A stretch of DNA of 64,000 nt. It comes from an uncultured virus (IMG/VR IMGVR_UViG_3300025327_000500) (lineage: Duplodnaviria > Heunggongvirae > Uroviricota > Caudoviricetes). The stretch lies in IMG/VR virus record IMGVR_UViG_3300025327_000500; one strand, written 5' to 3'. The notes below the pieces were generated by a model. It was given only the letters and a program-made list of their open reading frames with translations, was not told the DNA's origin and did no database searches. This document shows, piece after piece, positions 754 to 62,604 of the stretch. Positions within the stretch are counted from its first letter, which is position 1. Each line of letters opens with the position of its first letter. The position numbers and the translations under genes were made by a program.

Positions 754-1506
754 TTATAAATCTCCAAATATATTATAAAACAAACTGCCATCTAAACATC
801 CATTGCGAGACCGAAATGCTTTGTCATCAATCTCTTTATCTCTAGGAAGTGCATTTGCACTTCTAGACTGGTTCAACCAAAATTCGTAATGGGACATATC
901 TTCGTTCTTGGACACTAAATTAATTATATTTGGAACTCTATCCCAATTTTGTGCCATCAAACGCAAGCCTTTTATTACATACCACAACGAAATGTAAGAT
1001 CGTTTTATAAATGTTGGAAAAGAAATAACATCTCCACTCAATAATCTTTCCACAGTTGGCTTTATACTTTCTTTCGACCAAACAGAACCTAATCTTACAA
1101 TCTTTGCATTCTTATTATCAGCAGTGCAAATTAATTCTCCTGCCCACTTCGTAAATCCATATACATTTTTTGGTCTACAAATAGACTTTTCTTTATATGG
1201 TTTTATAGAGTGTCCAGAAAATACATGGAAAGTAGAAAGATAAAGTAACTTTACTCCTGCATACCGACAAGCGAAATCTACATTACTCGTTCCTCTTACA
1301 TTTACTCTGAATGCTTCTTTTTCGTTTGCCTCACACCAATCTACATCTGTCTTTGCAGCAGCATGAATAAGAACGTCAGGACTGATGGTTGCTAATTCTT
1401 CTCGTAGTTTTGGATAATCTGTAATATCTGACGTAATTGGAATACAACCATTCTTTACTAATTCCGAACCTATAAATCCTTTATGTCCAGTAACAGCAAT
1501 CTTCAT
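754..1506 (-). CDS. rmlD: dTDP-4-dehydrorhamnose reductase (RmlD-like SDR)
   Basis: TGHKGFIG, HAAAKTDVDWCE, LSTFHVFSG, YGFTK motifs. Confidence 0.85.
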   Translation of the reverse strand: MKIAVTGHKGFIGSELVKNGCIPITSDITDYPKLREELATISPDVLIHAAAKTDVDWCEANEKEAFRVNVRGTSNVDFACRYAGVKLLYLSTFHVFSGHSIKPYKEKSICRPKNVYGFTKWAGELICTADNKNAKIVRLGSVWSKESIKPTVERLLSGDVISFPTFIKRSYISLWYVIKGLRLMAQNWDRVPNIINLVSKNEDMSHYEFWLNQSRSANALPRDKEIDDKAFRSRNGCLDGSLFYNIFGDL

Positions 1507-4035: not shown

Positions 4036-5580
4036 TTAGGTTGTGCGATTTACAATCTCCGCCACAGAATATTGCGCTTTAGATTGTACCATAGGTTTCC
4101 CTGTATTTACAGGGGGCTGAATGCTTCTACGTTGAGGAATTTGTGGCTGATCTATTCTTTCTACTGGCTTATTCAGCAGCATATCCAATTTCTGTGCAAT
4201 TGGAGACATTACAGCAGATAAAGCCTTCACCATAGCATCAGCAGTTGGATCAGAAATCTCTGATTTTGGCTCTTCTTTCACATCAGAACGGATGATCTCT
4301 GCCAGTTCTCCACCAAGTTTATTGAATGGCGCTTGGATGCTTTGAAGTTTATCATTTGCTCCTGCACCAGACAATTGAATCTGGTCATAATCTCGCTTAA
4401 ATTCTTCAAAGATTGCATCCAAAGGATGTTCAGGAATGACTAATTGGCTTTTCAAGTTCGCAAATTCGGTGTTGAGAGTATCCAATTTGGTGAGAAGAGC
4501 TTCAATGCTATCGAAACGAGAAAGAACAGGTGAGAAATCAATTGCCGCAACCGGACTTACTACAGTCTCAAAAGCAACATCAGATTTCTTCTCTTCTTTC
4601 TTTTTCTTCTTGGTTTCCTCTTCCTCATCATCCTCTTCGTCATCGTGCATGGGCATATCTTCCTTCCCATGCTTTGCTTCCTCTACTTCGTCAGCCTTGA
4701 TGATAAGCTCAGATTTACCAACCAGTTTAGCCTTTTCTTCAATAGGCTCGATCAATTCCTCATCCTCAACGATGCTAAGAGCATCTTCTTTACGAGTAGT
4801 CATAGATTTTTCTACCTCCATATCCGTCCGTTCATTCATAGGAACTCTCGTCATCGCTAGATGAATGAGATGTCCTTTAATATAACGCTTCCCAACACCA
4901 GACATATTCATAAATTCTTTTAGACATTCTTCACAATAATCTTCTTCATCATTTCGTATAAACTTGAAATTGTTGCTTTTATGAATGTGTCCATAATCCA
5001 AAAATGCAATTGAAATTCGTACAGGGCCTATTGGATGGGGTGGGCCGCTGGTATCTAGTTTTACTGCTTTGAAACATGCCTCTCCGAGAGGAGTGTCAAG
5101 AAAACTACCTTTAGCTTTGAACCTATCTCCATCTATCCAAACGCTTTCAGTCATTCCAGGAACAGCATCCCCATTCAAATCTGGATAATGAGATAAAGAC
5201 ACGTAAGGCATACCACCCTTCCAGAAATCAGAACGGTACTCCTCTGGAGGTTGTGTACCCAAAGTAATATGGTTTATAAAATCATTATAAAGATCAAGAG
5301 ACATTTCATCGTTGGCTTTGTCTACGCCCACATCAGAAGCAGTTGCTTTCCATTTCATGCCAGCATCTTTGGTATAGGATGCTCGCTCAATGTGCATAGA
5401 AAGTTCTATGGCATTAGATTTCTTATGCCATTTACCTCCATCATCTTTTGACCATCCAGCATTTTCTACCGCACCCCACGCCATCTTAGCCGCCTTTGCC
5501 TCTCCATGTTCTTTTTTATTGGCGTTATAAACTTCTTCCCAAACCTTCTTACCTGATGCTGGCAAATTTCCCGTAGGCAT
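4036..5580 (-). CDS. prohead protease/scaffold with N-terminal ChaB-like domain
   Basis: N-terminal LP...WEEVYN...AWGAV...W ChaB pattern; ASD.GVD, SLSHY, HLAMTRVPMN protease-like core; acidic coiled-coil C-terminus; lies between portal and capsid. Confidence 0.7.
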   Translation of the reverse strand: MPTGNLPASGKKVWEEVYNANKKEHGEAKAAKMAWGAVENAGWSKDDGGKWHKKSNAIELSMHIERASYTKDAGMKWKATASDVGVDKANDEMSLDLYNDFINHITLGTQPPEEYRSDFWKGGMPYVSLSHYPDLNGDAVPGMTESVWIDGDRFKAKGSFLDTPLGEACFKAVKLDTSGPPHPIGPVRISIAFLDYGHIHKSNNFKFIRNDEEDYCEECLKEFMNMSGVGKRYIKGHLIHLAMTRVPMNERTDMEVEKSMTTRKEDALSIVEDEELIEPIEEKAKLVGKSELIIKADEVEEAKHGKEDMPMHDDEEDDEEEETKKKKKEEKKSDVAFETVVSPVAAIDFSPVLSRFDSIEALLTKLDTLNTEFANLKSQLVIPEHPLDAIFEEFKRDYDQIQLSGAGANDKLQSIQAPFNKLGGELAEIIRSDVKEEPKSEISDPTADAMVKALSAVMSPIAQKLDMLLNKPVERIDQPQIPQRRSIQPPVNTGKPMVQSKAQYSVAEIVNRTT

Positions 5581-7624: not shown

Positions 7625-10099
7625 TCAAATGCCCACTATCGGAGCTTTCTCTTCTTCTTTCTTCTCCTCTTTCTGCTGCCCTAAAAACCTAAAATCTATG
7701 TCCTTCCATGTTTTCAATGGGGCAACTGATATTCTAGCACCCGTAACTGATGTAACCCTGTCATCATGTCTGACATCTGGAAACCCATCTAAACAAGATA
7801 AAAACGGTTCATTCCATGCGCCTTTGACAATGTAGAACAATCCTCTACTCGCCTCCCCAAACCACACGTTTGCTAAAATTACTCTATCCTGATCCGGCCT
7901 CCAACCCAATTTATCGGCATCTATAGGCCATCCTGGTAGCTGTTCTTTAAGATATTTAGCAATAGCGGCGACTTGATTTTTACCGCCTGATGCTGCCTCT
8001 TGCTCAACCACAATTTTGACTGTTGGGCCATCCTGCATAGCGGTATCTCGAATAAGATTTAGCAGCCCATCCCATTCCACAAATGCCCCCACCTGATGCT
8101 CTATAACAAATCGGTTATCTTCTGTATACGACATCAACGTACCGACAGTCTCATCAGGATCGTTTAGTATCTTATCTCCCATCATCTTTTTTTCAGTTGC
8201 AGCCAAATCATAATAACGAACCCTAATTTTAGCATTTTCAGGTGGACTTTCCAATACCTTTCCATCAAACCACAATCTATCTCCTAACGATCCGCCTGGA
8301 CTTACAAATTCACCAAAGATTTCCTGTCTGCGTAAATATCCTGAATGGTATGTAGCCAACATTGTAGCCATAAATACAGGATTGAGGTTCTTTTGGTTAT
8401 CATAAATAGAACCAAAATATACATCATCAATCAGATTTCTATTGAGTTGTAGTTTTGTAAACATTTCCAAAGCATCTTGAGGAATATTCTTTTTTACAAA
8501 AAACTCATAAATCCAATGTTCTCTTCCACCAGGAGTACCAGTAATCCACGCTTGAGGGTCTTTACCCACACGCACAGCAGCCAAAGCAATCATCCAGGAT
8601 AACCCTAACAAGTCCCTGGCTGGCTCGTCATACCATAACCAATTGATGTTCGGGCCTCTTGCACTATCAGGGCTTTTCAATCCTTTAATCAACATCCATG
8701 CTTTATTCTTGAATACCAATCGGAACGGTTGCAGAGGTTGAAATGATTCTTCTTTTCTATATTGATGTTTAGGAATAACTAAATCCCAAGGTATCCATTG
8801 ACGCAATTCAGGCCACGTTGAAGTTTTTAGGTTCTCAAAATCTGGATTAAATACTGCACCAGATTCGCCTTGCTTAATCTTTATCAAAGCCTTTTGTGCC
8901 CCCGCAGCCGTCTTGCCACTATTATGATGATATAAACCACCAGCAGAATAATGTTCAAAATATGGCACAGTCAAATCATAAAATTCTCCAACACGAATAA
9001 ATTTTATGTCTACTATTGAATCAAAAAATGATGTATAATTGTAGGCATTCAACGGAGGTAGAGATGAAGAAACTTGGTAGACATCCAAGAATAAACCATG
9101 ATGAAGTAATTCGACAAATTCAAGAAATTCGGCTCGTAAAAACTGTGGCAATAAATCTAAATCTTTCTGAAAAATATGTCCAAAGCATTGCGAGAAAATA
9201 CAAAATTCAGATTGATGACCAAAGAGGTAAACATAATCAAAACCCAAGAACAATTTTTCTGGATAAAAAACTGGTTGTTCAGAGATATTTGAGTGGTGAG
9301 GGAACAAATGAGATTGGAAAAAGCCTAAATATTGATGGAGAAGTTGTTCGTAGGAGATTAAAGAAATGGAATATTCCACGAAGAGTCGGAAAAGCAATCG
9401 GGCCAAAGAATCCGCAATGGAAAGGAAATAGGAGTGCACCCATGCACTATTTTCGTAAACAGTCTTATGAAGTTGCTGCAATATGTCTAGGGCAACCCGT
9501 TCCGAAAGGATACGTAATTCATCATTTAGATGAAAACGCAAAGAATAATAATCCTGAAAATTTGATTTTATTTCCTTCCCAATCCTTACATGCCAAGTTC
9601 CATCAGAAAGTATTAAATCTCCGACTTGAAGTTGATTCAAAGGAATCCAACCAGCTAATGTTAGAAATCGGTGGTGTCCAGTTACCAAAGCCTCCGCACC
9701 CTCTAACGTTTTTACAGAATATAAACAATCTTTACCCTTCAAATAGCCAGGGGTAGATAAATATTTTCCATATAAAGTATCAACCACACCATAAGACTTT
9801 CTATCTGCTATAGGAATGTCCCCTATCATAGTTTCTGGTGCTATACATCCTCTTCCTCCCATGAACGCTGAAAGAACTGCTGTACTTTTTACAAAGGCTT
9901 CTTGCTTTTCACTTGGATTATATTCCTTGCTGTCTATCCTATGAAAATAACCTCTCTCAGAAAGAGGCCAAGTTAGATGTCTCTGCGTTCCCTCTAACAA
10001 TTCAGGGGGGATTTGCAATCCCCTACTTTTCAGTTCAGATACTAATGCCGCAAGTTTCTGCCTTCGGGCATCATAAAATCTTCCACCACCAATGCTCAT
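7625..10099 (-). CDS. terL: terminase large subunit, intein-containing
   Basis: Walker A GGRG|SGKT split by intein; Walker B WLWYDEP; GTP coupling motif; RuvC-like nuclease (YYDLA, HDDRVT). ATG 10099 overlaps the gmd stop (ATGA). Confidence 0.93.
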   Translation of the reverse strand: MSIGGGRFYDARRQKLAALVSELKSRGLQIPPELLEGTQRHLTWPLSERGYFHRIDSKEYNPSEKQEAFVKSTAVLSAFMGGRGCIAPETMIGDIPIADRKSYGVVDTLYGKYLSTPGYLKGKDCLYSVKTLEGAEALVTGHHRFLTLAGWIPLNQLQVGDLILSDGTWHVRIGKEIKSNFQDYYSLRFHLNDELRILSERVALDILQQLHKTVYENSAWVHSYFLSIADSLARLLFRLFVEYSISLISYEQLLHQYLGFFQSHLFPHHSNISEQPVFYPEKLFLGFDYVYLFGHQSEFCIFSQCFGHIFQKDLDLLPQFLRAEFLEFVELLHHGLFLDVYQVSSSLPPLNAYNYTSFFDSIVDIKFIRVGEFYDLTVPYFEHYSAGGLYHHNSGKTAAGAQKALIKIKQGESGAVFNPDFENLKTSTWPELRQWIPWDLVIPKHQYRKEESFQPLQPFRLVFKNKAWMLIKGLKSPDSARGPNINWLWYDEPARDLLGLSWMIALAAVRVGKDPQAWITGTPGGREHWIYEFFVKKNIPQDALEMFTKLQLNRNLIDDVYFGSIYDNQKNLNPVFMATMLATYHSGYLRRQEIFGEFVSPGGSLGDRLWFDGKVLESPPENAKIRVRYYDLAATEKKMMGDKILNDPDETVGTLMSYTEDNRFVIEHQVGAFVEWDGLLNLIRDTAMQDGPTVKIVVEQEAASGGKNQVAAIAKYLKEQLPGWPIDADKLGWRPDQDRVILANVWFGEASRGLFYIVKGAWNEPFLSCLDGFPDVRHDDRVTSVTGARISVAPLKTWKDIDFRFLGQQKEEKKEEEKAPIVGI
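9034..9059 (+). promoter_or_regulatory. -10 box (TATAAT) and RBS (GGAGGT) for the antisense HNH gene
   Basis: TATAAT at 9034-9039, GGAGGT at 9054-9059, ATG at 9064. Confidence 0.6.
9064..9756 (+). CDS. HNH homing endonuclease (two HTH-like repeats + HNH), antisense and nested within the intein
   Basis: HTH-like segments, GPKNPQWKG motif, VIHHLDENAKNNNPENL...HAKFH; strong RBS. Confidence 0.88.
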   Translation: MKKLGRHPRINHDEVIRQIQEIRLVKTVAINLNLSEKYVQSIARKYKIQIDDQRGKHNQNPRTIFLDKKLVVQRYLSGEGTNEIGKSLNIDGEVVRRRLKKWNIPRRVGKAIGPKNPQWKGNRSAPMHYFRKQSYEVAAICLGQPVPKGYVIHHLDENAKNNNPENLILFPSQSLHAKFHQKVLNLRLEVDSKESNQLMLEIGGVQLPKPPHPLTFLQNINNLYPSNSQG

Positions 10100-11112
10100 A
10101 ACCACCGATAAATAGAACTATAATGATCTTCAAAATATGCGTAACCCCAACCATTGTAAACGCCATAAGAGAGACGAGAAATTTCTGCATCAACCATAAT
10201 CTTTACAAGCATATCAAATTGAGTTTTAGCCTTCCAGTCTAAATCTCTATATGCTGAAAAAGTATCACATTGCAAAGAATCAACTTCGCGTGGACGCAAA
10301 AATTTATCGGAGATAGAAAAATCAATTTTCTTGCCGATATAAGTAGATGCGGCATCTAAAAATCCTTGAACCGTATGACTATCTCCAGTTCCAATTACGT
10401 AAGTATGTGATCCATCTTGCTGCAACATTTTCCACATCACCTCAACATAGTCCGGCGCAAATCCCCAATCTCTAATCGCACTCACATTACCAAGTTCTAG
10501 TTTATAAGGCATATTCAAATATGCTTTTGCAGCGGCTTTAGCAATCTTTTTAGTTACAAAATTATCCCCACGCCTAGGAGATTCGTGATTGAACATGATT
10601 CCACAAGCAATAAATTGTCCCATCTTTCGATATATCTCTGCCAAATGATGAGCAGCAACTTTAGAAACTGCATAAGGACTACGAGGAAAAAACTCATTAT
10701 GCTCATTATAAAACCTATCAAAACTTCCACCAAACATTTCAGAAGTGGATGCCTGATAGATTTTTGTGTTTCTTGGAGCACATTCTAATATATTCAACAG
10801 GCCTAATGTATTCACTCGGAATGTATAATCAGGAATATCAAAACTAGTATGGACATGAGATTGTGCGGCAAGATTATAAATTTCATCTGGAAAAGTTTCC
10901 ATTATTGTAAACTTCACAAAATTACTGTCTGTTATATCTCCCTCATGCAAGGTAATTTTATCTAGGATGTGTGCTATTCGATATAAACTTTGTTCCTGAG
11001 AGGATGATCTGCGCACAATCCCATGTACTTCATAGCCCTTAGACAACAGAAGTTCAGCTAAGTAAGAACCGTCCTGGCCTCCAATCCCCGTCACTAAAGC
11101 AATTTTATTCAT
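10096..11112 (-). CDS. gmd: GDP-mannose 4,6-dehydratase
   Basis: TGIGGQDGSYLAELLL, NLAAQSHV, QASTSEMFG, PRSPYAVSK, FNHESPRRG, RDWG. Confidence 0.95.
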   Translation of the reverse strand: MNKIALVTGIGGQDGSYLAELLLSKGYEVHGIVRRSSSQEQSLYRIAHILDKITLHEGDITDSNFVKFTIMETFPDEIYNLAAQSHVHTSFDIPDYTFRVNTLGLLNILECAPRNTKIYQASTSEMFGGSFDRFYNEHNEFFPRSPYAVSKVAAHHLAEIYRKMGQFIACGIMFNHESPRRGDNFVTKKIAKAAAKAYLNMPYKLELGNVSAIRDWGFAPDYVEVMWKMLQQDGSHTYVIGTGDSHTVQGFLDAASTYIGKKIDFSISDKFLRPREVDSLQCDTFSAYRDLDWKAKTQFDMLVKIMVDAEISRLSYGVYNGWGYAYFEDHYSSIYRWL

Positions 11113-11650
11113 CTATAATTTCATCCTCCAATGGTGCTTCTTCAAAGGTTTTTACTATCTCTTTCAAAAGCTGCTCATCTGATAGGCTGGTTAGTTTTGC
11201 TAATGCCTCTGGAATACTCCTGCTCTCTCGTTCTATCCTGATGCCTTCTACCAAAAGTCGAACGGCAGCAGGAGCAGACATTTCCTCGGCATGTTCCTCA
11301 AGATACTCTAACGCTATATCCTGCATCTTTGTACCTACTTGAGCATGACGCTCTAACATTTCTACCTTGGTTTGGATCAGAACTAAATCTACAGATTTCT
11401 GCACTCCTGCATCTAGCTCTTTAGCTCTGGCTCTCCAAGCATCTGACGAAATCCAACTCCACATCGTCTTTGCAGCCGGTTTTATGCCATAGTTAGTTTC
11501 TGGTATAGGTATTTTCTCGAATAAGACGGAGGCAATCGGTTTTCCGAGATTATACCAAATCGTAAAAACCTCATTCTTGTAATCATCCGTAAAACCGGTA
11601 TTAGTTGATCTACGAATATCCTTGTTTATTACATCGTCAAACACGTCCAC
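11105..11650 (-). CDS. probable terminase small subunit
   Basis: Helical 181-aa protein with N-terminal HTH-like W..RA segment, between HNH and terL. Confidence 0.5.
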   Translation of the reverse strand: MDVFDDVINKDIRRSTNTGFTDDYKNEVFTIWYNLGKPIASVLFEKIPIPETNYGIKPAAKTMWSWISSDAWRARAKELDAGVQKSVDLVLIQTKVEMLERHAQVGTKMQDIALEYLEEHAEEMSAPAAVRLLVEGIRIERESRSIPEALAKLTSLSDEQLLKEIVKTFEEAPLEDEIIDE

Positions 11651-11894
11651 GTAACTTATCCCTATGCCATTCTAAGATTGGCTTTGAAAACTTTGTGCCA
11701 TACTTATGTGCCCAATCGTGACAAACTGAACATACACAAACCCTGTTATCCTTCAACATCCAAGTCTTAGGCGCTAAAGACTTTGGAGTTAGCTCATGTA
11801 GAGTTACAGCGTCATACCCACATCGGATACACTTATACCCAAATTCCTCAAAGATTTCTAACTGATCTGGCTTCCAGAGGCTTTTATCAATCAT
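11637..11894 (-). CDS. small HNH endonuclease (packaging-associated type)
   Basis: CIRCG...HEL...N...CSVCHDWAH. Confidence 0.8.
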   Translation of the reverse strand: MIDKSLWKPDQLEIFEEFGYKCIRCGYDAVTLHELTPKSLAPKTWMLKDNRVCVCSVCHDWAHKYGTKFSKPILEWHRDKLRGRV

Positions 11895-13059: not shown

Positions 13060-14121
13060 TTGAAAAATGTATTAGTGACGGGTGGAGCAGGTTTCATTGG
13101 TTCTAACTTCGTCCATTATATATCAGATAAATTACCGAACGTGTCTATTATTGTATTGGATTTGCTGACATACGTTGCTAATTTAGAGGCCTTAGATGCA
13201 GTAAATCACAAGTTTTATCGTGGAAACATAAAAAATAAATCTTTGGTTCGACAAATCCTCGAAGAGAATAATATAGACACAGTAGTCAATTTTGCTGCTG
13301 AAACTCACATAGACCGATCTATTTTATATCCAGAAGATTTTATAGAAACTAATATCTTTGGGACTTTTAATTTATTATTCCAATCCTTTAAGCATGGAGT
13401 ATCCAGATTTCATCACATATCTACAGACGAAGTATATGGTTCTTTGGGTATAAATGATGATCCGTGGACTGAAGATGCTCCTTATCAACCCAACACCCCC
13501 TATTCAGCTTCAAAAGCTGGTAGTGACCATCTGGTAAGAGCTTTTGGTCACACTTATGGTCTACCTTATACAATCTCTAACAGCTCCAATAATTTTGGCC
13601 CGTATCAGTTTCCAGAAAAGTTAGTGCCTATTGTCGTAGATCGGCTTTTACATTCTCGAAACATTCCTATTCATGGAGATGGATCACAAATCAGAGATTG
13701 GTTATATGTTAAAGATCATTGTTCAGCTATTCTTATGATTTTACAAAAGGGCAAGATTGGTGAATGTTACAATGTTGGCGCTTCCGATGACCATTCAGTT
13801 TTAGAAATTGTGAATACGATCTGTTATATTTTCGATATTTTATTTCCAAATAACGTTCCTCATAACAGATTTATAGAATTTATTCCTGATAGACCTGGAA
13901 ATGATAAACGATATGCTCTCAATTCTGAAAAGATAACAGACTTAGGATGGTTTACAGAACAAGCCTTAGACGAATCTATGTATAAAACTGTAAAATGGTA
14001 CGTAGATCATCAAGATTGGTTAGATCGTGCCAGAAATACCAGGGCATATAAGATTTGGCAGAAAAAGGATTATTTTGGCAAAATAAAGAAACTGATGCTT
14101 TATAATCCCATAAAAGACTAG
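13060..14121 (+). CDS. rmlB: dTDP-glucose 4,6-dehydratase
   Basis: TGGAGFIGSNF, NFAAETHIDRSI, HISTDEVYG, YSASKA, DRPGNDKRY. Confidence 0.95.
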   Translation: MKNVLVTGGAGFIGSNFVHYISDKLPNVSIIVLDLLTYVANLEALDAVNHKFYRGNIKNKSLVRQILEENNIDTVVNFAAETHIDRSILYPEDFIETNIFGTFNLLFQSFKHGVSRFHHISTDEVYGSLGINDDPWTEDAPYQPNTPYSASKAGSDHLVRAFGHTYGLPYTISNSSNNFGPYQFPEKLVPIVVDRLLHSRNIPIHGDGSQIRDWLYVKDHCSAILMILQKGKIGECYNVGASDDHSVLEIVNTICYIFDILFPNNVPHNRFIEFIPDRPGNDKRYALNSEKITDLGWFTEQALDESMYKTVKWYVDHQDWLDRARNTRAYKIWQKKDYFGKIKKLMLYNPIKD

Positions 14122-59012: not shown

Positions 59013-59858
59013 CTACCAGTACAAATATTCATCCCATTGAAGGTCTTTAGAACATCTGGACATAAATAGTTGCTTGTTCTCATTTAATGGATAGGTAAAT
59101 CCGTATGCAGATGCCGTAGCATTAACCATATGATATGCCGTTGCTTGAGAACAGATAACATTATACCCTAAATTGCGAACATTTACCGCAAAATTTACAT
59201 CCTCGTAAGTCCCTAAGCCATATCCAAGATAGAAACCTCTAATATTTTTCCAGATATTACGCCTGGTCATAAATACAGCACCAGTTACAGCAAAACAATC
59301 TCGCATTGCCAAAACTTTAGGATGGTCTGCTCTCCATCCTATAAATTGGTGTTGCACTTCGGCCCTAATATTTACAGATAATCCCACATGCTGAACCTTC
59401 TCAGCAGGCCCATGAGGAGATTCGGGTGGAAATAGTAGTTTCATTCCCACTAAACCATTTTTAGGATCATCCATTTCTCGAACCAGTTTATCCAACGATC
59501 CTTCATGTAAAAACACATCATTAGTCAGGATTAGAATTAGTGGCGACTTGCCTTGTTTAGCGGCAAAATTGCAAGCTAATGGGTATCCTTTTGGGTCTGG
59601 AAATATCGTTGGATGTATCCGTCTATCTCTAATATATTCAGCATAAAACTTTTCTGCCTCTCCTTTAGGACTTCCATTATCACAAATCCAAACATTATAG
59701 GATATATCCTTAGCAGCAGACGGAATTGCATCCAAACATCTAGCCAACAAATCAAATCTGCCTCGATTGGGCATAACTATATCTACCAACGAAGGTAAGA
59801 TAACTTCTACCTTTTTAGATGCTGTAATGTTCTTAGACTTTCTGTGGTTCTTCGACAT
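59013..59858 (-). CDS. glycosyltransferase family 2 (rhamnosyltransferase-like)
   Basis: DIVMP, CDNGS, ACNFAA, LTNDV, AVTGA, YEDV. Confidence 0.9.
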   Translation of the reverse strand: MSKNHRKSKNITASKKVEVILPSLVDIVMPNRGRFDLLARCLDAIPSAAKDISYNVWICDNGSPKGEAEKFYAEYIRDRRIHPTIFPDPKGYPLACNFAAKQGKSPLILILTNDVFLHEGSLDKLVREMDDPKNGLVGMKLLFPPESPHGPAEKVQHVGLSVNIRAEVQHQFIGWRADHPKVLAMRDCFAVTGAVFMTRRNIWKNIRGFYLGYGLGTYEDVNFAVNVRNLGYNVICSQATAYHMVNATASAYGFTYPLNENKQLFMSRCSKDLQWDEYLYW

Positions 59859-61026
59859 TAGTCTTTTCTCTTTTCTTCATCACTTTCTGTAAAGTTGTTT
59901 CCACAATATCTACAGATTTAGACCACTCTCTAGTATTAGCAAACTCTTTTGCTTTCTTAATCATTTCCGTATTATCTGAGTTGTAGGTTTCTAAAAGCAG
60001 TTTTGCTCCTTTTGACCTGCTGGCATAATACCTTCTACCATTCCCAAAAGGATCACGAATTGTATAGTCATAAGGAATTAACCTTCCTCTCCCATCTGAT
60101 AGCAATTCATGGATACCCGTACAATCTGTACCAATACAAGGAATACCACTAGCCATTGCTTCAAGGATGGGAAGGCACATTCCTTCGGCCTTCGATGAAA
60201 TCAGAAATACGTCACTTGCTACATAGATACCCCATAATCTATTTTGTGACATACCTCTCTCTATGATTATCAACTCGGAACCTATTCCAAACTCTTGTGC
60301 TAAATCTTGTAATCTCCATCCTACTGTCGACTGTTCAGCAGTAACCATAACATATTTAGAATTTGGAATTTGCTTGTGAAACTCAACGAACATCTCCATT
60401 GATCGGGATAGAAATTTCCTCTCTTGGTTATACGCTACGGTAAGCACAATATAATCATTCTCTTTGAAACCTAAAGCATTCCTCAAAGCGGTCCTTTCTT
60501 CTGGATTTGCAAATCTCCAGGCATCGGAATTTATACCGACCGGCATGTACTCAGCTTCCACACCAACCTTTCTGGCTTCCTCTGTACCAAACTGAGAAAT
60601 AATTAATGCCTTATCCATAGACATTAGATTTAGTGCCCACGTCATACATAATGGATCAGCCTCGATTGGCATGATGCCAACGTAAGGAATATTCATGCCA
60701 TTCGACCTGAGATATGCTAAATACTGTTCTTGAACAGGAATATCCATTGCGATTAACAGAATGTCAAATTTCCATATCTGTAACAAGTTTTGTAGCATCG
60801 CAATAGATTCTTGAAAGTTTCTGCATGGAATTATGCTAAAGGGAAAGTCATGCTCTTCCCCCAAGTATCCTAAACCAATTGCTTTTATATTATGTCCCCG
60901 CAATCCCAACCCGCTTCCAATTGAAATTGCAACATTAAAGTATCCAGAAAACCTAAAATCGAAATCACTCAAAAGGCAAATCTTCATTGATCTCTTTTCT
61001 TCTTGTATATTATCCATAAGGCTCAT
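59833..61026 (-). CDS. glycosyltransferase family 4
   Basis: N..RK; SDVFLISSKAEGMCLPILEAMASG.P. Confidence 0.92.
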   Translation of the reverse strand: MSLMDNIQEEKRSMKICLLSDFDFRFSGYFNVAISIGSGLGLRGHNIKAIGLGYLGEEHDFPFSIIPCRNFQESIAMLQNLLQIWKFDILLIAMDIPVQEQYLAYLRSNGMNIPYVGIMPIEADPLCMTWALNLMSMDKALIISQFGTEEARKVGVEAEYMPVGINSDAWRFANPEERTALRNALGFKENDYIVLTVAYNQERKFLSRSMEMFVEFHKQIPNSKYVMVTAEQSTVGWRLQDLAQEFGIGSELIIIERGMSQNRLWGIYVASDVFLISSKAEGMCLPILEAMASGIPCIGTDCTGIHELLSDGRGRLIPYDYTIRDPFGNGRRYYASRSKGAKLLLETYNSDNTEMIKKAKEFANTREWSKSVDIVETTLQKVMKKREKTNVEEPQKV

Positions 61027-61578: not shown

Positions 61579-62604
61579 CTATCCATTGAACACTTTTTTA
61601 TCCCATTCCTTTGCTATTATATCGGGTTCAAATCTTGCAAATGCTTTTAGCTTTATATCTCTAATATCTATTGGATTATTTATTGCGTTTACAACAGCAT
61701 CCACAAACCGAGGTCGGAAATTTGATTCTCCTCTTGGAACTATCTTGCACATATTTGTAGTCGATAATGCACCTGCATCGCTAGTTATAGTATATATACC
61801 ACAACATTGCGCCTCGGCTACTGACACACACATTAATTCGTCATAAGAACATGGATATAAAAGAAACTCAGAACTCAACTGTTCCTGGATTAAATCTTTC
61901 CTAAGAATTGCTCCTAAGAATCTGATGTTATCCGTATACATCCATTTCAATCTATGAGGCATGTTTCTTTCATCCACTCCCCACAATCTATAATCAGATG
62001 TGATTGTTAGAGTTATATCTGGAATGGATTGTTTTATTGAAGGCCAACATTCGTATAAATCCATCAACCCTCTATCCGGTACAGAAGTAAAAATACACTT
62101 GTTCTTTATTTTCACTGTAGGTTCATCTATCACAAGATCATCTAACCGGATTGGCAAATCTATTACTTCTGTATTTGTTATCTGATAAACACCTCTAAAA
62201 TAATCTTGATGAAACTTAGAAATACACACAATCTTTTGCACATAAGGAGCAAAAACTTTGAAATCTCCTTCTGTATATTGGTCACAGGATAACCATACCT
62301 TAAGTCCATTTGATATAATAGACAATGAATTAGGAGAACGAAACGTAATCAGAACATCTCTATTTGCTTTAGGCTCAAATTGACTGACGTATCTTTGCTC
62401 GAATGGACTTGCACCTAACTCTGTAGGATTATTATATAAAATAACTTCGTGTCCTAATTTATTCCAGGTTTCACACAAAGTTAATAACCCATACTCACTG
62501 CCTCCAACTCCGATCCCTCGTCTACCTTCTCCCCATAAGTCTTTTAGAGTCACTCCTAATGAGCTTCCACCATTTTCATTGTTACATAGAATGTCTATTT
62601 TCAT
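61579..62604 (-). CDS. GT-B fold glycosyltransferase (GT4-like)
   Basis: GVGGSE, TSVPDRGL, LYPCSYDELMCVSVAEAQ..G. Confidence 0.88.
   Translation of the reverse strand: MKIDILCNNENGGSSLGVTLKDLWGEGRRGIGVGGSEYGLLTLCETWNKLGHEVILYNNPTELGASPFEQRYVSQFEPKANRDVLITFRSPNSLSIISNGLKVWLSCDQYTEGDFKVFAPYVQKIVCISKFHQDYFRGVYQITNTEVIDLPIRLDDLVIDEPTVKIKNKCIFTSVPDRGLMDLYECWPSIKQSIPDITLTITSDYRLWGVDERNMPHRLKWMYTDNIRFLGAILRKDLIQEQLSSEFLLYPCSYDELMCVSVAEAQCCGIYTITSDAGALSTTNMCKIVPRGESNFRPRFVDAVVNAINNPIDIRDIKLKAFARFEPDIIAKEWDKKVFNG

What the first reader, a model, noticed from the sequence alone, without database searches (positions are those of the whole stretch)
8921..9847. Terminase intein whose homing endonuclease is a separate gene on the opposite strand
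Seen: terL is interrupted in its Walker A motif (GGRG|SGKT) by a 309-aa in-frame intein with Cys1, block B TxxH and terminal HN/Ser+1. The roughly 200 residues between the splicing blocks have no LAGLIDADG or HNH motifs and read like antisense text (rich in F/L/S/H/Y). The reverse strand of the same DNA (9064-9756) encodes a 230-aa protein with two HTH-like repeats, GPKNPQWKG and an intact HNH motif (HHLDENAKNNNPENL...H..FH), preceded by GGAGGT. Both frames are stop-free across 230 codons. At 3/64 stops per codon that is roughly 1e-5 by chance, and less in AT-rich DNA, which suggests selection to keep the terminase frame open. Established: mobile inteins normally carry the endonuclease in-frame, within the spliced-out polypeptide. 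Inference: this is a bipartite, two-strand homing element. The sense strand supplies splicing, making the insertion harmless; the antisense strand supplies mobility. It probably arose when a free-standing HNH gene invaded a mini-intein in reverse orientation. I do not know of a described intein with this architecture, and gene callers would normally discard the nested ORF.
Basis: partly seen in the sequence, partly recalled or inferred. Interest (0 to 1): 0.95.

Follow-up and report, generated by a model that had tools for sequence, protein, structure and literature searches.

The report
Terminase intein with antisense HNH gene
A phage DNA-packaging gene is interrupted in its ATP-binding loop by a self-splicing intein whose homing nuclease is a separate, intact HNH gene on the opposite DNA strand; the layout is real and widespread in uncultured phages, but it is an HNH version of a rare arrangement already described for other nucleases.

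Summary
terL (minus strand, 7625-10099) carries a 309-aa class-1 intein (8921-9847) between GGRG and SGKT. A 230-aa HTH-HTH-HNH_3 gene (9064-9756, plus strand) lies wholly inside it.

Both frames are kept open by selection. None of 20,000 synonymous shuffles of the HNH gene left the terL frame stop-free (mean 12.6 stops). Codon-position variability shows the splicing domains constrained in the intein frame and the middle constrained in the HNH frame. AlphaFold2 folds intein residues 1-85 and 272-309 as a mini-intein and leaves 86-271 below pLDDT 50.

The layout recurs:
- 39 of 45 full-length related inteins in viral contigs carry the antisense HNH in the same phase; the other 6 are mini-inteins.
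- Hosts include several terminase families and one SNF2 helicase.
- The nearest terL relatives (82-89% identity) and 45 of 46 family loci have an uninterrupted P-loop, which points to mobility.

Antisense LAGLIDADG and VSR-like endonucleases in inteins are in print (Gorbalenya 1998, as cited; Gosselin et al. 2025). I found no report of an antisense HNH. Verdict: a new variant of a known kind. Splicing, expression and homing remain inferred.

The parts
7625..10099 (-). terL, terminase large subunit precursor (824 aa from ATG 10099; the ORF list starts it at GTG 10105)
   Evidence: ORF. PHROG terminase large subunit 8e-23 and Pfam Terminase_6N 6e-5. Homologues begin MSIGGG. Its own record, P0165, is 824 aa.
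9848..10099 (-). N-extein, ending in the first half of Walker A (..FMGGRG)
   Evidence: Translation. Intein-less homologues read G(G/S)RGSGKT without a break.
8921..9847 (-). Class-1 intein, 309 aa (Cys1 ... His308-Asn309, followed by Ser+1)
9593..9847 (-). Intein N-terminal splicing domain (aa 1-85; block A Cys1, block B Thr56/His59)
   Evidence: pLDDT 79-93. Invariant columns. Variation concentrates at the intein wobble position.
9035..9592 (-). Intein linker (aa 86-271): translated, stop-free, not predicted to fold; antisense of the HNH gene body
   Evidence: pLDDT below 50 across 86-271. No Pfam or PHROG family. Its second codon positions vary most. 0 stops against 12.6 expected.
8921..9034 (-). 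Intein C-terminal splicing domain (aa 272-309; FYDLTVP, HHN)
   Evidence: pLDDT 80-96. Invariant Y290, D291, H307, H308 and N309. Variation at the intein wobble.
7625..8920 (-). C-extein (SGKT... to the stop codon): rest of the ATPase domain and the nuclease domain
   Evidence: 718 homologues at E<=0.001; the 120 best listed are 387-611 aa, nearly all ~500 aa. The three checked for Walker A are uninterrupted.
9064..9756 (+). Antisense homing-endonuclease gene (230 aa + stop): HTH1 aa 12-45, HTH2 aa 68-101, HNH beta-beta-alpha core aa 132-186, tail aa 187-230
   Evidence: Pfam HNH_3 1.7e-9. Family alignment with invariant H153, H154, N166, H176 and H180. AlphaFold2 mean pLDDT 80.6. Variation at its own wobble position over aa 1-183.
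9622..9753 (+). HNH C-terminal tail, encoded over the intein N-domain. The EIGGVQLPKPP motif is the antisense of intein block B (VTGHHRFLT).
   Evidence: Selection switches to the intein frame from about 9613. The 125-aa mini-intein L161, which lacks the HNH body, still matches the HNH profile through this part (4e-17).
9034..9039 (+). TATAAT, candidate -10 element of the HNH gene, inside the intein codons N-Y-T
   Evidence: Sequence. A TAnnnT hexamer sits at the homologous place in 23 of 31 distinct relatives, against 7% of control windows. It is at a fixed offset from the FWD codon. The simple promoter scan did not list it, as there is no -35.
9054..9059 (+). GGAGGT Shine-Dalgarno sequence, 4 nt before ATG 9064; encoded within the intein's L-P-P codons
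   Evidence: L004 has the same GGAGGT leader.

Best explanation
This is a two-strand homing element sitting in the Walker A (P-loop) codons of a phage terminase gene.

**Minus strand.** The whole 824-aa TerL precursor is translated. Intein residues 1-85 and 272-309 form a mini-intein-like HINT domain. The ~186 residues between them are an unstructured loop whose only requirement is to contain no stop codon. Splicing (Cys1, Thr56/His59, His308-Asn309, Ser+1) rejoins GGRG-SGKT and restores the ATPase.

**Plus strand.** The same DNA encodes a 230-aa nuclease with two helix-turn-helix modules and an HNH_3 catalytic core. It has its own -10 element and ribosome-binding site embedded in intein codons. 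The nuclease most likely recognises and nicks or cuts intein-less P-loop alleles in co-infecting phages. Repair from the intein-bearing copy then copies intein and nuclease gene together.

**Shown here:**
- the anatomy;
- selection on both frames, each in its own segment;
- the fold predictions;
- recurrence of the layout;
- a sporadic distribution with empty, full and mini alleles.

**Inferred:** splicing, transcription and translation of the HNH gene, its target, and homing itself.
For: 1. **Stop avoidance.** The window gave 0 of 20,000 synonymous shuffles open. In 10 further distinct loci the intein frame has 0 stops where shuffles give means of 1.5-15.6.
2. **Segmented selection (11 sequences).**
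   - 8923-9030 and 9613-9847: variability at the intein wobble is 0.38-0.75, against 0.19-0.53 at the HNH wobble.
   - 9031-9600: the HNH wobble is at 0.48-0.79, against 0.13-0.67 at the intein wobble.
3. **Folds.**
   - The intein model has pLDDT 79-96 at both ends and below 50 for residues 86-271.
   - Foldseek's top hits are mini-inteins: Ssp DnaB 2e-5, Npu DnaB TM 0.74.
   - The HNH model has mean pLDDT 80.6, with two HTH modules and a beta-beta-alpha unit.
4. **Recurrence.**
   - 12 of 12 close HNH loci are nested antisense in a 405-928-aa open frame.
   - 39 of 45 full-length related inteins carry an antisense HNH-profile hit (E <= 7e-16), always in the same phase.
   - The dipeptide F[IMTNK] cannot be encoded if that phase is to stay open. 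It occurs 0 times where 50.9 are expected in 40 family proteins.
   - It also occurs 0 times in 47 further representatives. In 91 unrelated HTH-repeat proteins it occurs 265 times against 314 expected.
5. **Mobility.**
   - terL relatives at 82-89% identity lack the intein.
   - 45 of 46 family loci in viral contigs have an uninterrupted P-loop.
   - Splicing domains are 41-78% and HNH 33-74% identical across hosts, while C-exteins often align only at 25-35% over parts.
   - Hosts include Terminase_6N/6C and Terminase_3 types and one LPD3+SNF2 protein.
   - Full and mini pairs occur in one terL lineage (L164/L170, L214/L188).
6. **Expression signals.**
   - TATAAT at 9034-9039 and GGAGGT at 9054-9059.
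   - A -10-like hexamer at the homologous place in 23 of 31 relatives, against 7% background.
   - A start codon exactly 6 nt after that hexamer in 11 of 31.
Against: - No experiment or RNA data: no RNA run holds the stretch.
- Pfam Intein_splicing is 0.7 bits under its gathering score for this intein.
- For the two GC-richest relatives the open antisense frame is not significant on its own (496 and 313 of 3,000 shuffles were open).
- The HNH catalytic part found no solved-structure match, so its identity rests on sequence profiles.
- The -10 element is not universal (8 of 31 lack it under the script's rule). Part of its conservation could come from the intein's own codons or from shared ancestry.
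- The simple promoter scan did not list the -10 element.
- Contigs of four other samples show only the intein-bearing form and no empty-site joint. Contigs drop rare variants, so this says little.
- A 186-residue hydrophobic loop in an essential enzyme's precursor may carry a cost that is not explained.
Confidence: 0.85

Rival explanations
1. The HNH protein is not a homing enzyme. Instead it is a packaging accessory nuclease of the kind that many phages encode beside their terminase genes, and it is nested here only to save space.
For: HNH endonucleases next to cos sites and terminase genes are common (abstract of PMC3592412, seen in the listing). Most hosts of this element are terminases.
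Against: - The gene travels with the intein, not with terL. It is absent from 45 of 46 related terL loci and from the closest relatives.
- It is also found inside an intein in an SNF2 helicase (L048).
- It carries two sequence-reading HTH modules.
- Mini-intein alleles that have lost it persist in the same terL lineage.
Confidence: 0.05
2. The antisense HNH ORF is a decaying relic of a past invasion. The intein is now inherited vertically, and the open HNH frame is left over.
For: Mini-inteins without the HNH exist (6 of 45). No expression data exist.
Against: - Variation over HNH aa 1-183 concentrates at its wobble position.
- Catalytic residues are invariant in 22 sequences.
- The start context and -10 element are conserved.
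- The ORF is intact in 39 of 45 relatives that differ by 26-67% in HNH sequence.
Confidence: 0.05
3. The sense-frame middle of the intein is itself a functional folded domain, for example a new in-frame endonuclease or a regulator of splicing. On this view the region would be truly dual-function throughout.
For: AlphaFold2 draws long helices in residues 116-252. The sense frame keeps a weakly conserved D.L.QL..T..D.SA stretch.
Against: - Those helices have pLDDT 25-44.
- No Pfam or PHROG family is found.
- Intein length varies from 259 to 421 aa, and the middle barely aligns.
- Its second codon positions vary most.
- The conserved stretch is the antisense of the invariant HNH core.
Confidence: 0.03
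4. The insertion is not removed at all. It would stay as a tolerated loop in mature TerL, as proposed for the ShiLan insertion in a phage methylase.
For: Out-of-frame HNH insertions without any splicing domain exist (PMC11855218, abstract and passages).
Against: Here all intein nucleophiles and blocks are present and under selection. The ends fold as a HINT domain. The insertion splits the Walker A motif, which could not bind ATP with 309 residues inside it (established knowledge of P-loop ATPases).
Confidence: 0.02

Closest known systems
Non-canonical inteins with an antisense homing endonuclease. Examples: antisense LAGLIDADG in Synechocystis DnaX and a Chloroflexus SpoVR-like protein (Gorbalenya 1998 and Gogarten 2002, as cited by Gosselin et al.; not read); antisense LAGLIDADG and VSR-like/EDxHD in actinophage inteins (Gosselin, Arsenault, Gogarten, bioRxiv 10.1101/2025.01.02.630785; sections 8 and 15 read)
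   Same: - The endonuclease ORF lies on the opposite strand between the splicing blocks.
- The in-frame middle is predicted to be unstructured.
- Terminase large subunit is among the hosts.
- Distribution is sporadic.
- Origin by invasion of an intein by a free-standing endonuclease has been proposed.
   Different: - The nuclease here is HTH-HTH-HNH_3. That paper lists HNH only in-frame.
- The ORF overlaps the N-terminal splicing domain, block B included.
- The element has an embedded -10 with a leaderless or SD start.
- The family spans many uncultured, non-actinobacterial phages and an SNF2 helicase.
- That paper's supplements could not be seen, so an antisense HNH hidden in its tables cannot be excluded.
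Cyanobacterial DnaX intein with an out-of-frame (+2) LAGLIDADG endonuclease (Phillips, DeSimone, Gogarten, bioRxiv 10.64898/2026.09.14.751524; sections 3, 11, 17 read)
   Same: - Splicing and homing functions are in separate overlapping frames.
- The in-frame middle is disordered.
- Selection is frame-dependent.
- Full, mini and empty alleles coexist.
   Different: There the endonuclease is on the same strand, is a LAGLIDADG type, and sits in a bacterial host gene.
In-frame HNH_3 intein of cyanophage vB_AphaS-CL131 dCTP deaminase (PMC6293099, passages read)
   Same: A Hint domain combined with an HNH_3 nuclease in one phage intein. Self-excision was shown in E. coli for that one.
   Different: There the HNH_3 is part of the intein polypeptide. 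Here it is a separate antisense gene.
Fractured genes: split inteins with a free-standing endonuclease gene between the halves (Dassa et al. 2009; known through Gosselin et al. and recall, not read)
   Same: A free-standing-type endonuclease gene lodged inside an intein-coding region of a phage or environmental gene.
   Different: There the host gene is broken into two ORFs and spliced in trans. Here the frame is continuous in 45 of 45 relatives.
ShiLan-type hidden out-of-frame HNH insertions in phage methylases (Arsenault et al. 2025, PMC11855218)
   Same: A hidden HNH gene in another frame of an in-frame, stop-free insertion at a conserved site, with a leaderless start proposed.
   Different: ShiLan has no splicing domain and lies on the same strand. 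Here there is a complete intein and the gene is on the opposite strand.

Membership tests
Intein (class 1, HINT domain) | In-frame insertion at a conserved site of a host protein | tested here: met
   It splits Walker A as GGRG|SGKT. Intein-less homologues read G(G/S)RGSGKT.
Intein (class 1, HINT domain) | N-terminal Cys/Ser, block B TxxH, C-terminal His-Asn, and Cys/Ser/Thr at +1 | tested here: met
   C1, T56, H59, H308 and N309 are invariant in 11 sequences; +1 is S or C.
Intein (class 1, HINT domain) | Profile match and HINT fold | tested here: met
   Pfam Intein_splicing 1.4e-8, though 35.1 bits against a cut-off of 35.8. Relatives score up to 48.9 bits. The AF2 ends have pLDDT 79-96. Foldseek's top 10 hits are all inteins, E 2e-5 to 8e-4.
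Intein (class 1, HINT domain) | Protein splicing activity | not testable with these tools
   Needs expression of the precursor.
HNH_3 / His-Me finger nuclease | Profile match above the curated cut-off | tested here: met
   PF13392, 37.6 bits against 24.8; PHROG HNH families down to 2e-9.
HNH_3 / His-Me finger nuclease | Conserved His...Asn...His residues on a beta-beta-alpha unit | tested here: met
   H153, H154, N162, N166, H176 and H180 are invariant in 22 sequences. The model has strands 151-154 and 167-170 and helix 173-186 at pLDDT 90-94. Which residue plays which catalytic role is recalled, not tested.
HNH_3 / His-Me finger nuclease | Structural likeness to a solved HNH nuclease | tested here: inconclusive
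   Foldseek found nothing at E<=1e-3. VIA-align rows cover only the HTH modules. The PDB sequence search found HTH proteins only. The HNH part was not searched alone.
Mobile (homing) intein | Sporadic distribution, with empty alleles among close relatives | tested here: met
   P0045-47 (82-89% identity) are empty. 45 of 46 family loci are empty.
Mobile (homing) intein | Element more conserved than, and shared between, divergent host genes | tested here: met
   Pairwise identities; host families. No formal tree-incongruence test was run.
Mobile (homing) intein | Endonuclease cuts the intein-less allele; gene conversion follows | not testable with these tools
   Needs purified protein and a homing assay.
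Described antisense-endonuclease inteins (LAGLIDADG or VSR-like) | Endonuclease ORF on the opposite strand inside the intein | tested here: met
Described antisense-endonuclease inteins (LAGLIDADG or VSR-like) | Endonuclease of LAGLIDADG or VSR-like/EDxHD type | tested here: not met
   The ORF is HNH_3 with HTH modules. It is therefore a new variant, not a member of the described groups.
Fractured gene / split intein with a free-standing endonuclease | Host gene split into two ORFs around the endonuclease gene | tested here: not met
   0 stops in the sense frame in the window and in 45 of 45 relatives.
Terminase-associated packaging HNH (HK97 gp74 type) | Small stand-alone HNH gene beside terS/terL, kept with the packaging module | tested here: not met
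   It is nested in the intein, 230 aa with two HTH modules, and absent from 45 of 46 related terL loci. The family's features are recalled, plus the abstract of PMC3592412.

The most novel reading that the evidence does not exclude
This is one member of a large, so far unpublished family of two-strand homing elements specialised on the Walker A codons of phage ATPases. The family combines a mini-intein on one strand with a free-standing-type HTH-HNH_3 gene on the other. The HNH gene's own, often leaderless, promoter is written into the intein's C-terminal domain codons, and its 3' end is written over intein block B. Because the target is the near-universal GxxGxGK[ST] coding sequence, the unit can switch between unrelated terminases and even an SNF2 helicase. 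Full, mini and empty alleles all occur, which would make the family a natural system for testing the 'splicing first, endonuclease invades later' model and the homing cycle.
Probability: 0.55. Interest if true: 0.75.

Novelty: new variant of a known kind. Interest (0 to 1): 0.6.

Why it matters
- **Annotation.** A whole class of intein-borne homing endonucleases is invisible to standard annotation, because the nuclease is on the other strand of a gene that is already called. Inteins scored as lacking an endonuclease may in fact be fully mobile.
- **Overlapping genes.** The family is a clean natural example of antisense overlapping genes. Selection can be assigned segment by segment to one strand or the other, and the overlap leaves a protein-level signature (the missing F[IMTNK] dipeptide) usable without DNA.
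- **Intein evolution.** It adds an HNH case, with many members and with full, mini and empty alleles, to the argument that free-standing endonuclease genes colonise pre-existing inteins.
- **Tools.** The splicing domain tolerates a ~190-residue arbitrary loop, which is of interest to intein engineers. The nuclease may be a P-loop-DNA-specific nickase or cutter.

Tried and rejected
- **Phage GenBank records.** No DNA match to terL. Only 5 weak protein matches to the HNH core.
- **The search for related loci with single proteins.** Nothing found. Alignments were needed.
- **Own-genome search.** No genome is held for this window.
- **Region-restricted search with the intein.** Only 3 proteins, one of them the window's own. 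This reflects the word-index limit and is no measure of family size.
- **Structure searches for the HNH model.** Foldseek PDB gave nothing at E<=1e-3. VIA-align wide gave only HTH rows, Z<=6.4. A PDB sequence profile gave HTH proteins only.
- **Promoter scan.** It did not list the 9034-9039 TATAAT, as there is no -35.
- **Expression.** No RNA holder is listed for the stretch.
- **Empty site in the same populations.** Contigs of 4 further DNA runs are identical to the window, bridge both intein junctions, and show no joint that skips the intein. Contigs cannot show absence.
- **L030.** This locus has a 269-aa antisense open frame over an HNH gene in DNA rich in Ala/Arg/Pro/Gly codons, without intein motifs. 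I counted it as chance.
- **L025.** Terminase hits but no Pfam intein hit at E<=0.001. Its intein N-terminus is cut off by the locus end.
- **P0241.** Picked up by my motif filter. It is a 525-aa HTH-repeat protein (best stretch profile 14-168), not a family member.
- **Antisense phase.** I considered whether the shared phase is the least stop-prone one. By reasoning on the code it is not, since the codon-opposite phase forbids no dipeptide. The shared phase is therefore better read as common descent.
- **Gorbalenya 1998.** The paper could not be fetched.


Full report
**What is there.** The window's minus strand carries a terminase large-subunit gene (ORF 7625..10105).
- It matches PHROG terminase families down to 8e-23 and Pfam Terminase_6N.
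- Its likely start is ATG 10099. Homologues begin MSIGGG and the protein on record is 824 aa.
- The Walker A motif is split...FMGGRG | CIAPET ... GLYHHN | SGKTAAGA.
- The 309 codons in between (8921-9847) have every hallmark of a class-1 intein: Cys1, Thr56/His59, Asp291, His308-Asn309 and Ser+1. All are invariant in an alignment with ten relatives.
- Pfam finds only Intein_splicing in this frame (1.4e-8; 35.1 bits, 0.7 under the curated cut-off) and no endonuclease.

On the plus strand, ORF 9064-9756 encodes 230 residues.
- It hits Pfam HNH_3 (1.7e-9, above cut-off), gives weak HTH hits and matches several PHROG HNH families.
- GGAGGT (9054-9059) lies 4 nt before the ATG, and a perfect TATAAT lies at 9034-9039.

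**Is the double open frame more than chance?** Yes.
- I reshuffled the HNH gene's own synonymous codons 20,000 times. None of the shuffles left the intein frame open, and they gave 4-21 stops. The mean was 12.6 stops (3,000 shuffles).
- The other four frames of the segment carry 16-30 stops.

**Which strand is selected where.** I aligned the window with ten distinct related loci in the HNH frame and measured nucleotide variability by codon position. L003 and L082, duplicates of L002 and L005, were left out.
- In this antisense phase the HNH wobble base pairs with the intein's second codon position, and the intein wobble pairs with the HNH second position. The comparison therefore shows directly which frame is constrained.
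- Over 8923-9030 (intein C-terminal domain) and 9613-9847 (N-terminal domain), variation peaks at the intein wobble.
- Over 9031-9600 (HNH residues 1-183), variation peaks at the HNH wobble, which is the intein's second position.
- So the splicing domains are under purifying selection as intein. The middle is under purifying selection as HNH, and there the intein frame is only kept free of stops.
- The last ~47 HNH codons run over the intein N-domain. The conserved HNH tail motif EIGGVQLPKPP is the antisense of block B (VTGHHRFLT).
- A 125-aa mini-intein that lacks the HNH body still matches the HNH profile through this tail (L161, 4e-17). The tail's conservation is thus probably borrowed from the intein.

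**Folds.**
- With the 11-sequence alignment, AlphaFold2 gives pLDDT 79-93 for intein residues 1-85 and 80-96 for 272-309. Residues 86-271 fall below 50.
- Foldseek's ten hits at E<=0.001 are all inteins: Ssp DnaB mini-intein 2e-5, Npu DnaB at TM 0.74 on the target, Mtu RecA.
- The HNH protein, modelled with 22 sequences, has mean pLDDT 80.6. It shows two three-helix HTH modules (12-45, 68-101), a low-confidence connector (111-129) and a beta-beta-alpha unit (151-186).
- Structure searches recognised only the HTH modules and no solved HNH. The nuclease assignment rests on sequence profiles and on the invariant H153, H154, N166, H176 and H180.

**It is a family, not a singleton.**
- The HNH protein has 41 database relatives of 169-324 aa.
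- All 12 loci that encode close relatives have a 405-928-aa open frame on the opposite strand covering the whole HNH gene (viral contigs and two MAG contigs).
- In each distinct locus that frame reads as a terminase split at G|[SC]GK[TS] by an intein, in the same relative phase. Pfam finds Intein_splicing in all ten distinct loci sent and a terminase family in eight; L008 and the short L081 gave no terminase hit.
- Their shuffle tests give means of 1.5-15.6 expected stops against 0 observed. Only the two GC-richest loci (L005, L007) are not significant on their own.
- I then searched viral contigs with the intein alignment. Of 79 loci, 45 cover the full intein and the other 34 partial matches were not analysed.
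- All 45 are stop-free in the sense frame. 39 have an antisense HNH-profile hit (E<=7e-16), always in the same frame. The remaining 6 are mini-inteins of 125-157 aa.
- Among 71 more distant HNH_3 loci, 11 had an opposite-strand open frame over at least 95% of the HNH ORF, and 10 of these read as inteins. The other 60 had no such frame and look free-standing. One further locus, L030, is a chance open frame.
- Of those 10, 8 were sent to Pfam (L023 and L046 are duplicates and were not). 7 showed Intein_splicing; L025 did not, being cut at the locus end.
- Hosts are terminases of different Pfam types (Terminase_6N/6C, Terminase_3, or none recognised). One is a 1778-aa LPD3+SNF2 protein, split in its helicase P-loop AAGTG|SGKS.

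**A protein-level signature.**
- In this phase, Phe followed by a residue whose codons all start with A (I, M, T, N, K) inevitably places a stop on the other strand.
- F[IMTNK] occurs 0 times in 40 family proteins (10,779 residues; 50.9 expected).
- It occurs 0 times in 47 further 50%-identity representatives. All 5 occurrences in my filtered set of 48 are in P0241, an HTH-repeat protein that the filter picked up wrongly.
- By contrast, 91 HTH-repeat proteins hit by the same profile have 265 occurrences against 314 expected.
- So essentially the whole HNH family, including members for which I have no DNA, appears to live antisense in an open frame.

**Mobility.**
- A search with the C-extein found 718 relatives at E<=0.001; the 120 best listed are 387-611 aa, nearly all about 500 aa.
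- The closest are 89%, 83% and 82% identical (511-515 aa) and read G(G/S)RGSGKT without interruption.
- Of 56 loci of this terL family in viral contigs, 46 include the P-loop region. 45 of those are uninterrupted, and the single intein carrier is the contig of L001.
- Across the 11 carriers, splicing domains are 41-78% identical and HNH cores 33-74% identical. Many C-extein pairs align only at 25-35% over part of their length.
- Full-length and mini alleles occur within one terL lineage. L164 (359 aa) and L170 (149 aa) are 72% identical outside the deletion, and L214/L188 form a second such pair.
- Empty, full and mini alleles together are what the homing cycle predicts. Because phase and position are shared, the mini-inteins are more simply read as deletions than as ancestors. 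This was not tested.

**Expression signals.**
- With the sequences anchored on the intein's FWD codon, a -10-like hexamer sits at a fixed offset. It is TATAAT in the window, L001, L002, L004, L006 and L081, TACAAT in L005 and L007, and TAGAAT in L009.
- Over 31 distinct sequences, a TAnnnT hexamer with at least 4 of 6 matches lies in the homologous 18-nt window in 23. The rate in control windows of the same sequences is 7% (87 of 1,270). Eight are perfect TATAAT.
- By eye, five more sequences carry TAGTAT 3 nt upstream.
- In 11 of 31 a start codon follows exactly 6 nt after the hexamer. That spacing is expected for a leaderless mRNA (an inference from established promoter geometry).
- The window, L004 and others instead have a GGAGG leader.
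- Relatedness and the intein's own codons may inflate these counts, and the consensus promoter scan did not list the site.
- No RNA run holds the stretch, so expression is inferred.

**The DNA is not an assembly artefact.** Contigs identical to the window occur in four further runs and bridge both intein junctions. None skips the intein.

**Comparison with what is known.** Seven literature searches found no antisense HNH in an intein, but they did find the architecture itself.
- Gosselin, Arsenault and Gogarten (bioRxiv 2025; abstract, sections 8 and 15 and passages read) report 63 actinophage inteins with non-canonical endonucleases. Hosts include terminase large subunits.
- They credit antisense LAGLIDADG inteins to Gorbalenya 1998 and Gogarten 2002, which I could not read.
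- They propose the same origin, a free-standing endonuclease invading an intein. Their supplements were not visible to me.
- Phillips et al. (bioRxiv 2026; sections 3, 11, 17) show a same-strand +2-frame LAGLIDADG in cyanobacterial DnaX inteins, with frame-dependent selection.
- Arsenault et al. 2025 (PMC11855218, abstract and passages) describe hidden out-of-frame HNH insertions without any intein.
- An in-frame HNH_3 intein that self-excises is known in cyanophage CL131 (PMC6293099, passages).
- This element is therefore a new variant (antisense HTH-HNH_3) of a known, rare kind.
- Earlier notes of this scan describe the same family in other genomes and reach the same verdict. They are not independent evidence.

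**Context.** The window looks like an uncultured phage genome. It encodes DNA polymerase, two helicases and a UvsX-like recombinase, and 465-aa and 396-aa ORFs lie next to terL (the first of which I took for a portal on sight; no family search supports it). It also carries an unusual load of nucleotide-sugar enzymes and glycosyltransferases. No whole genome is held for it.

**Limits.**
- Nothing here shows splicing, transcription of the HNH gene, its cleavage site or homing.
- The selection analysis is a codon-position comparison on 11 related sequences, not a tree-based model.
- No formal test of tree incongruence was run.

Noticed in passing
window 10006-10024 (+): A terminator-like hairpin (8 pairs, then a T-run) lies on the plus strand about 250 nt downstream of the HNH stop, inside the terL N-extein codons. 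It could end the antisense HNH transcript. The region has 6 terminator-like sites against 1.2 expected from shuffles.
   Followed up: no
window 10096-10099: The terL ATG (10099-10097) overlaps the stop codon (10098-10096) of the upstream GDP-mannose 4,6-dehydratase gene as ATGA. This suggests translational coupling of a sugar-metabolism gene with the terminase.
   Followed up: partly
window 754-1506, 10096-11112, 13060-14121, 59833-61026, 61579-62604: The phage-like window carries three nucleotide-sugar epimerase/dehydratase genes and two glycosyltransferases. One sits between the putative small terminase region and terL. This may reflect DNA or virion glycosylation, or host-surface modification.
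   Followed up: no
window 11637-11894 (-): An 85-aa ORF with CxxC ... CxxCH spacing that resembles a small zinc/HNH-type nuclease, just upstream of the terminase region. It has no Pfam or PHROG hit.
   Followed up: partly
L048:1851-7184 (-): A 1778-aa open frame with LPD3 and SNF2 domains. It carries the same kind of intein, with an antisense HTH-HNH gene, in its helicase P-loop (AAGTG|SGKS). This indicates a switch of host gene between unrelated ATPases.
   Followed up: partly
L164:1501-2577 vs L170:1501-1947; L214:1501-2448 vs L188:1501-1890: Full-length (HNH-bearing) and mini-intein alleles occur at the same site of closely related terminases. They differ by clean removal of the middle part.
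   Followed up: partly
proteins P0181, P0182, P0207, P0210, P0270 and others: The HNH family's HTH modules match, at E 1e-32 to 1e-67, long proteins of 500-4460 aa that contain 4-13 tandem copies of the same HTH unit and no HNH motif. Their nature is unknown.
   Followed up: no
window 4036-5580 (-): A 514-aa ORF with an N-terminal ChaB domain (1.7e-6) and no other recognisable family, located in the structural/packaging region.
   Followed up: no
L159:1501-2397: A related intein with an antisense HNH sits at a different junction (..MSGLMC|C...FNHN|SPNLPH), not a GK[ST] P-loop. The host protein was not identified.
   Followed up: no
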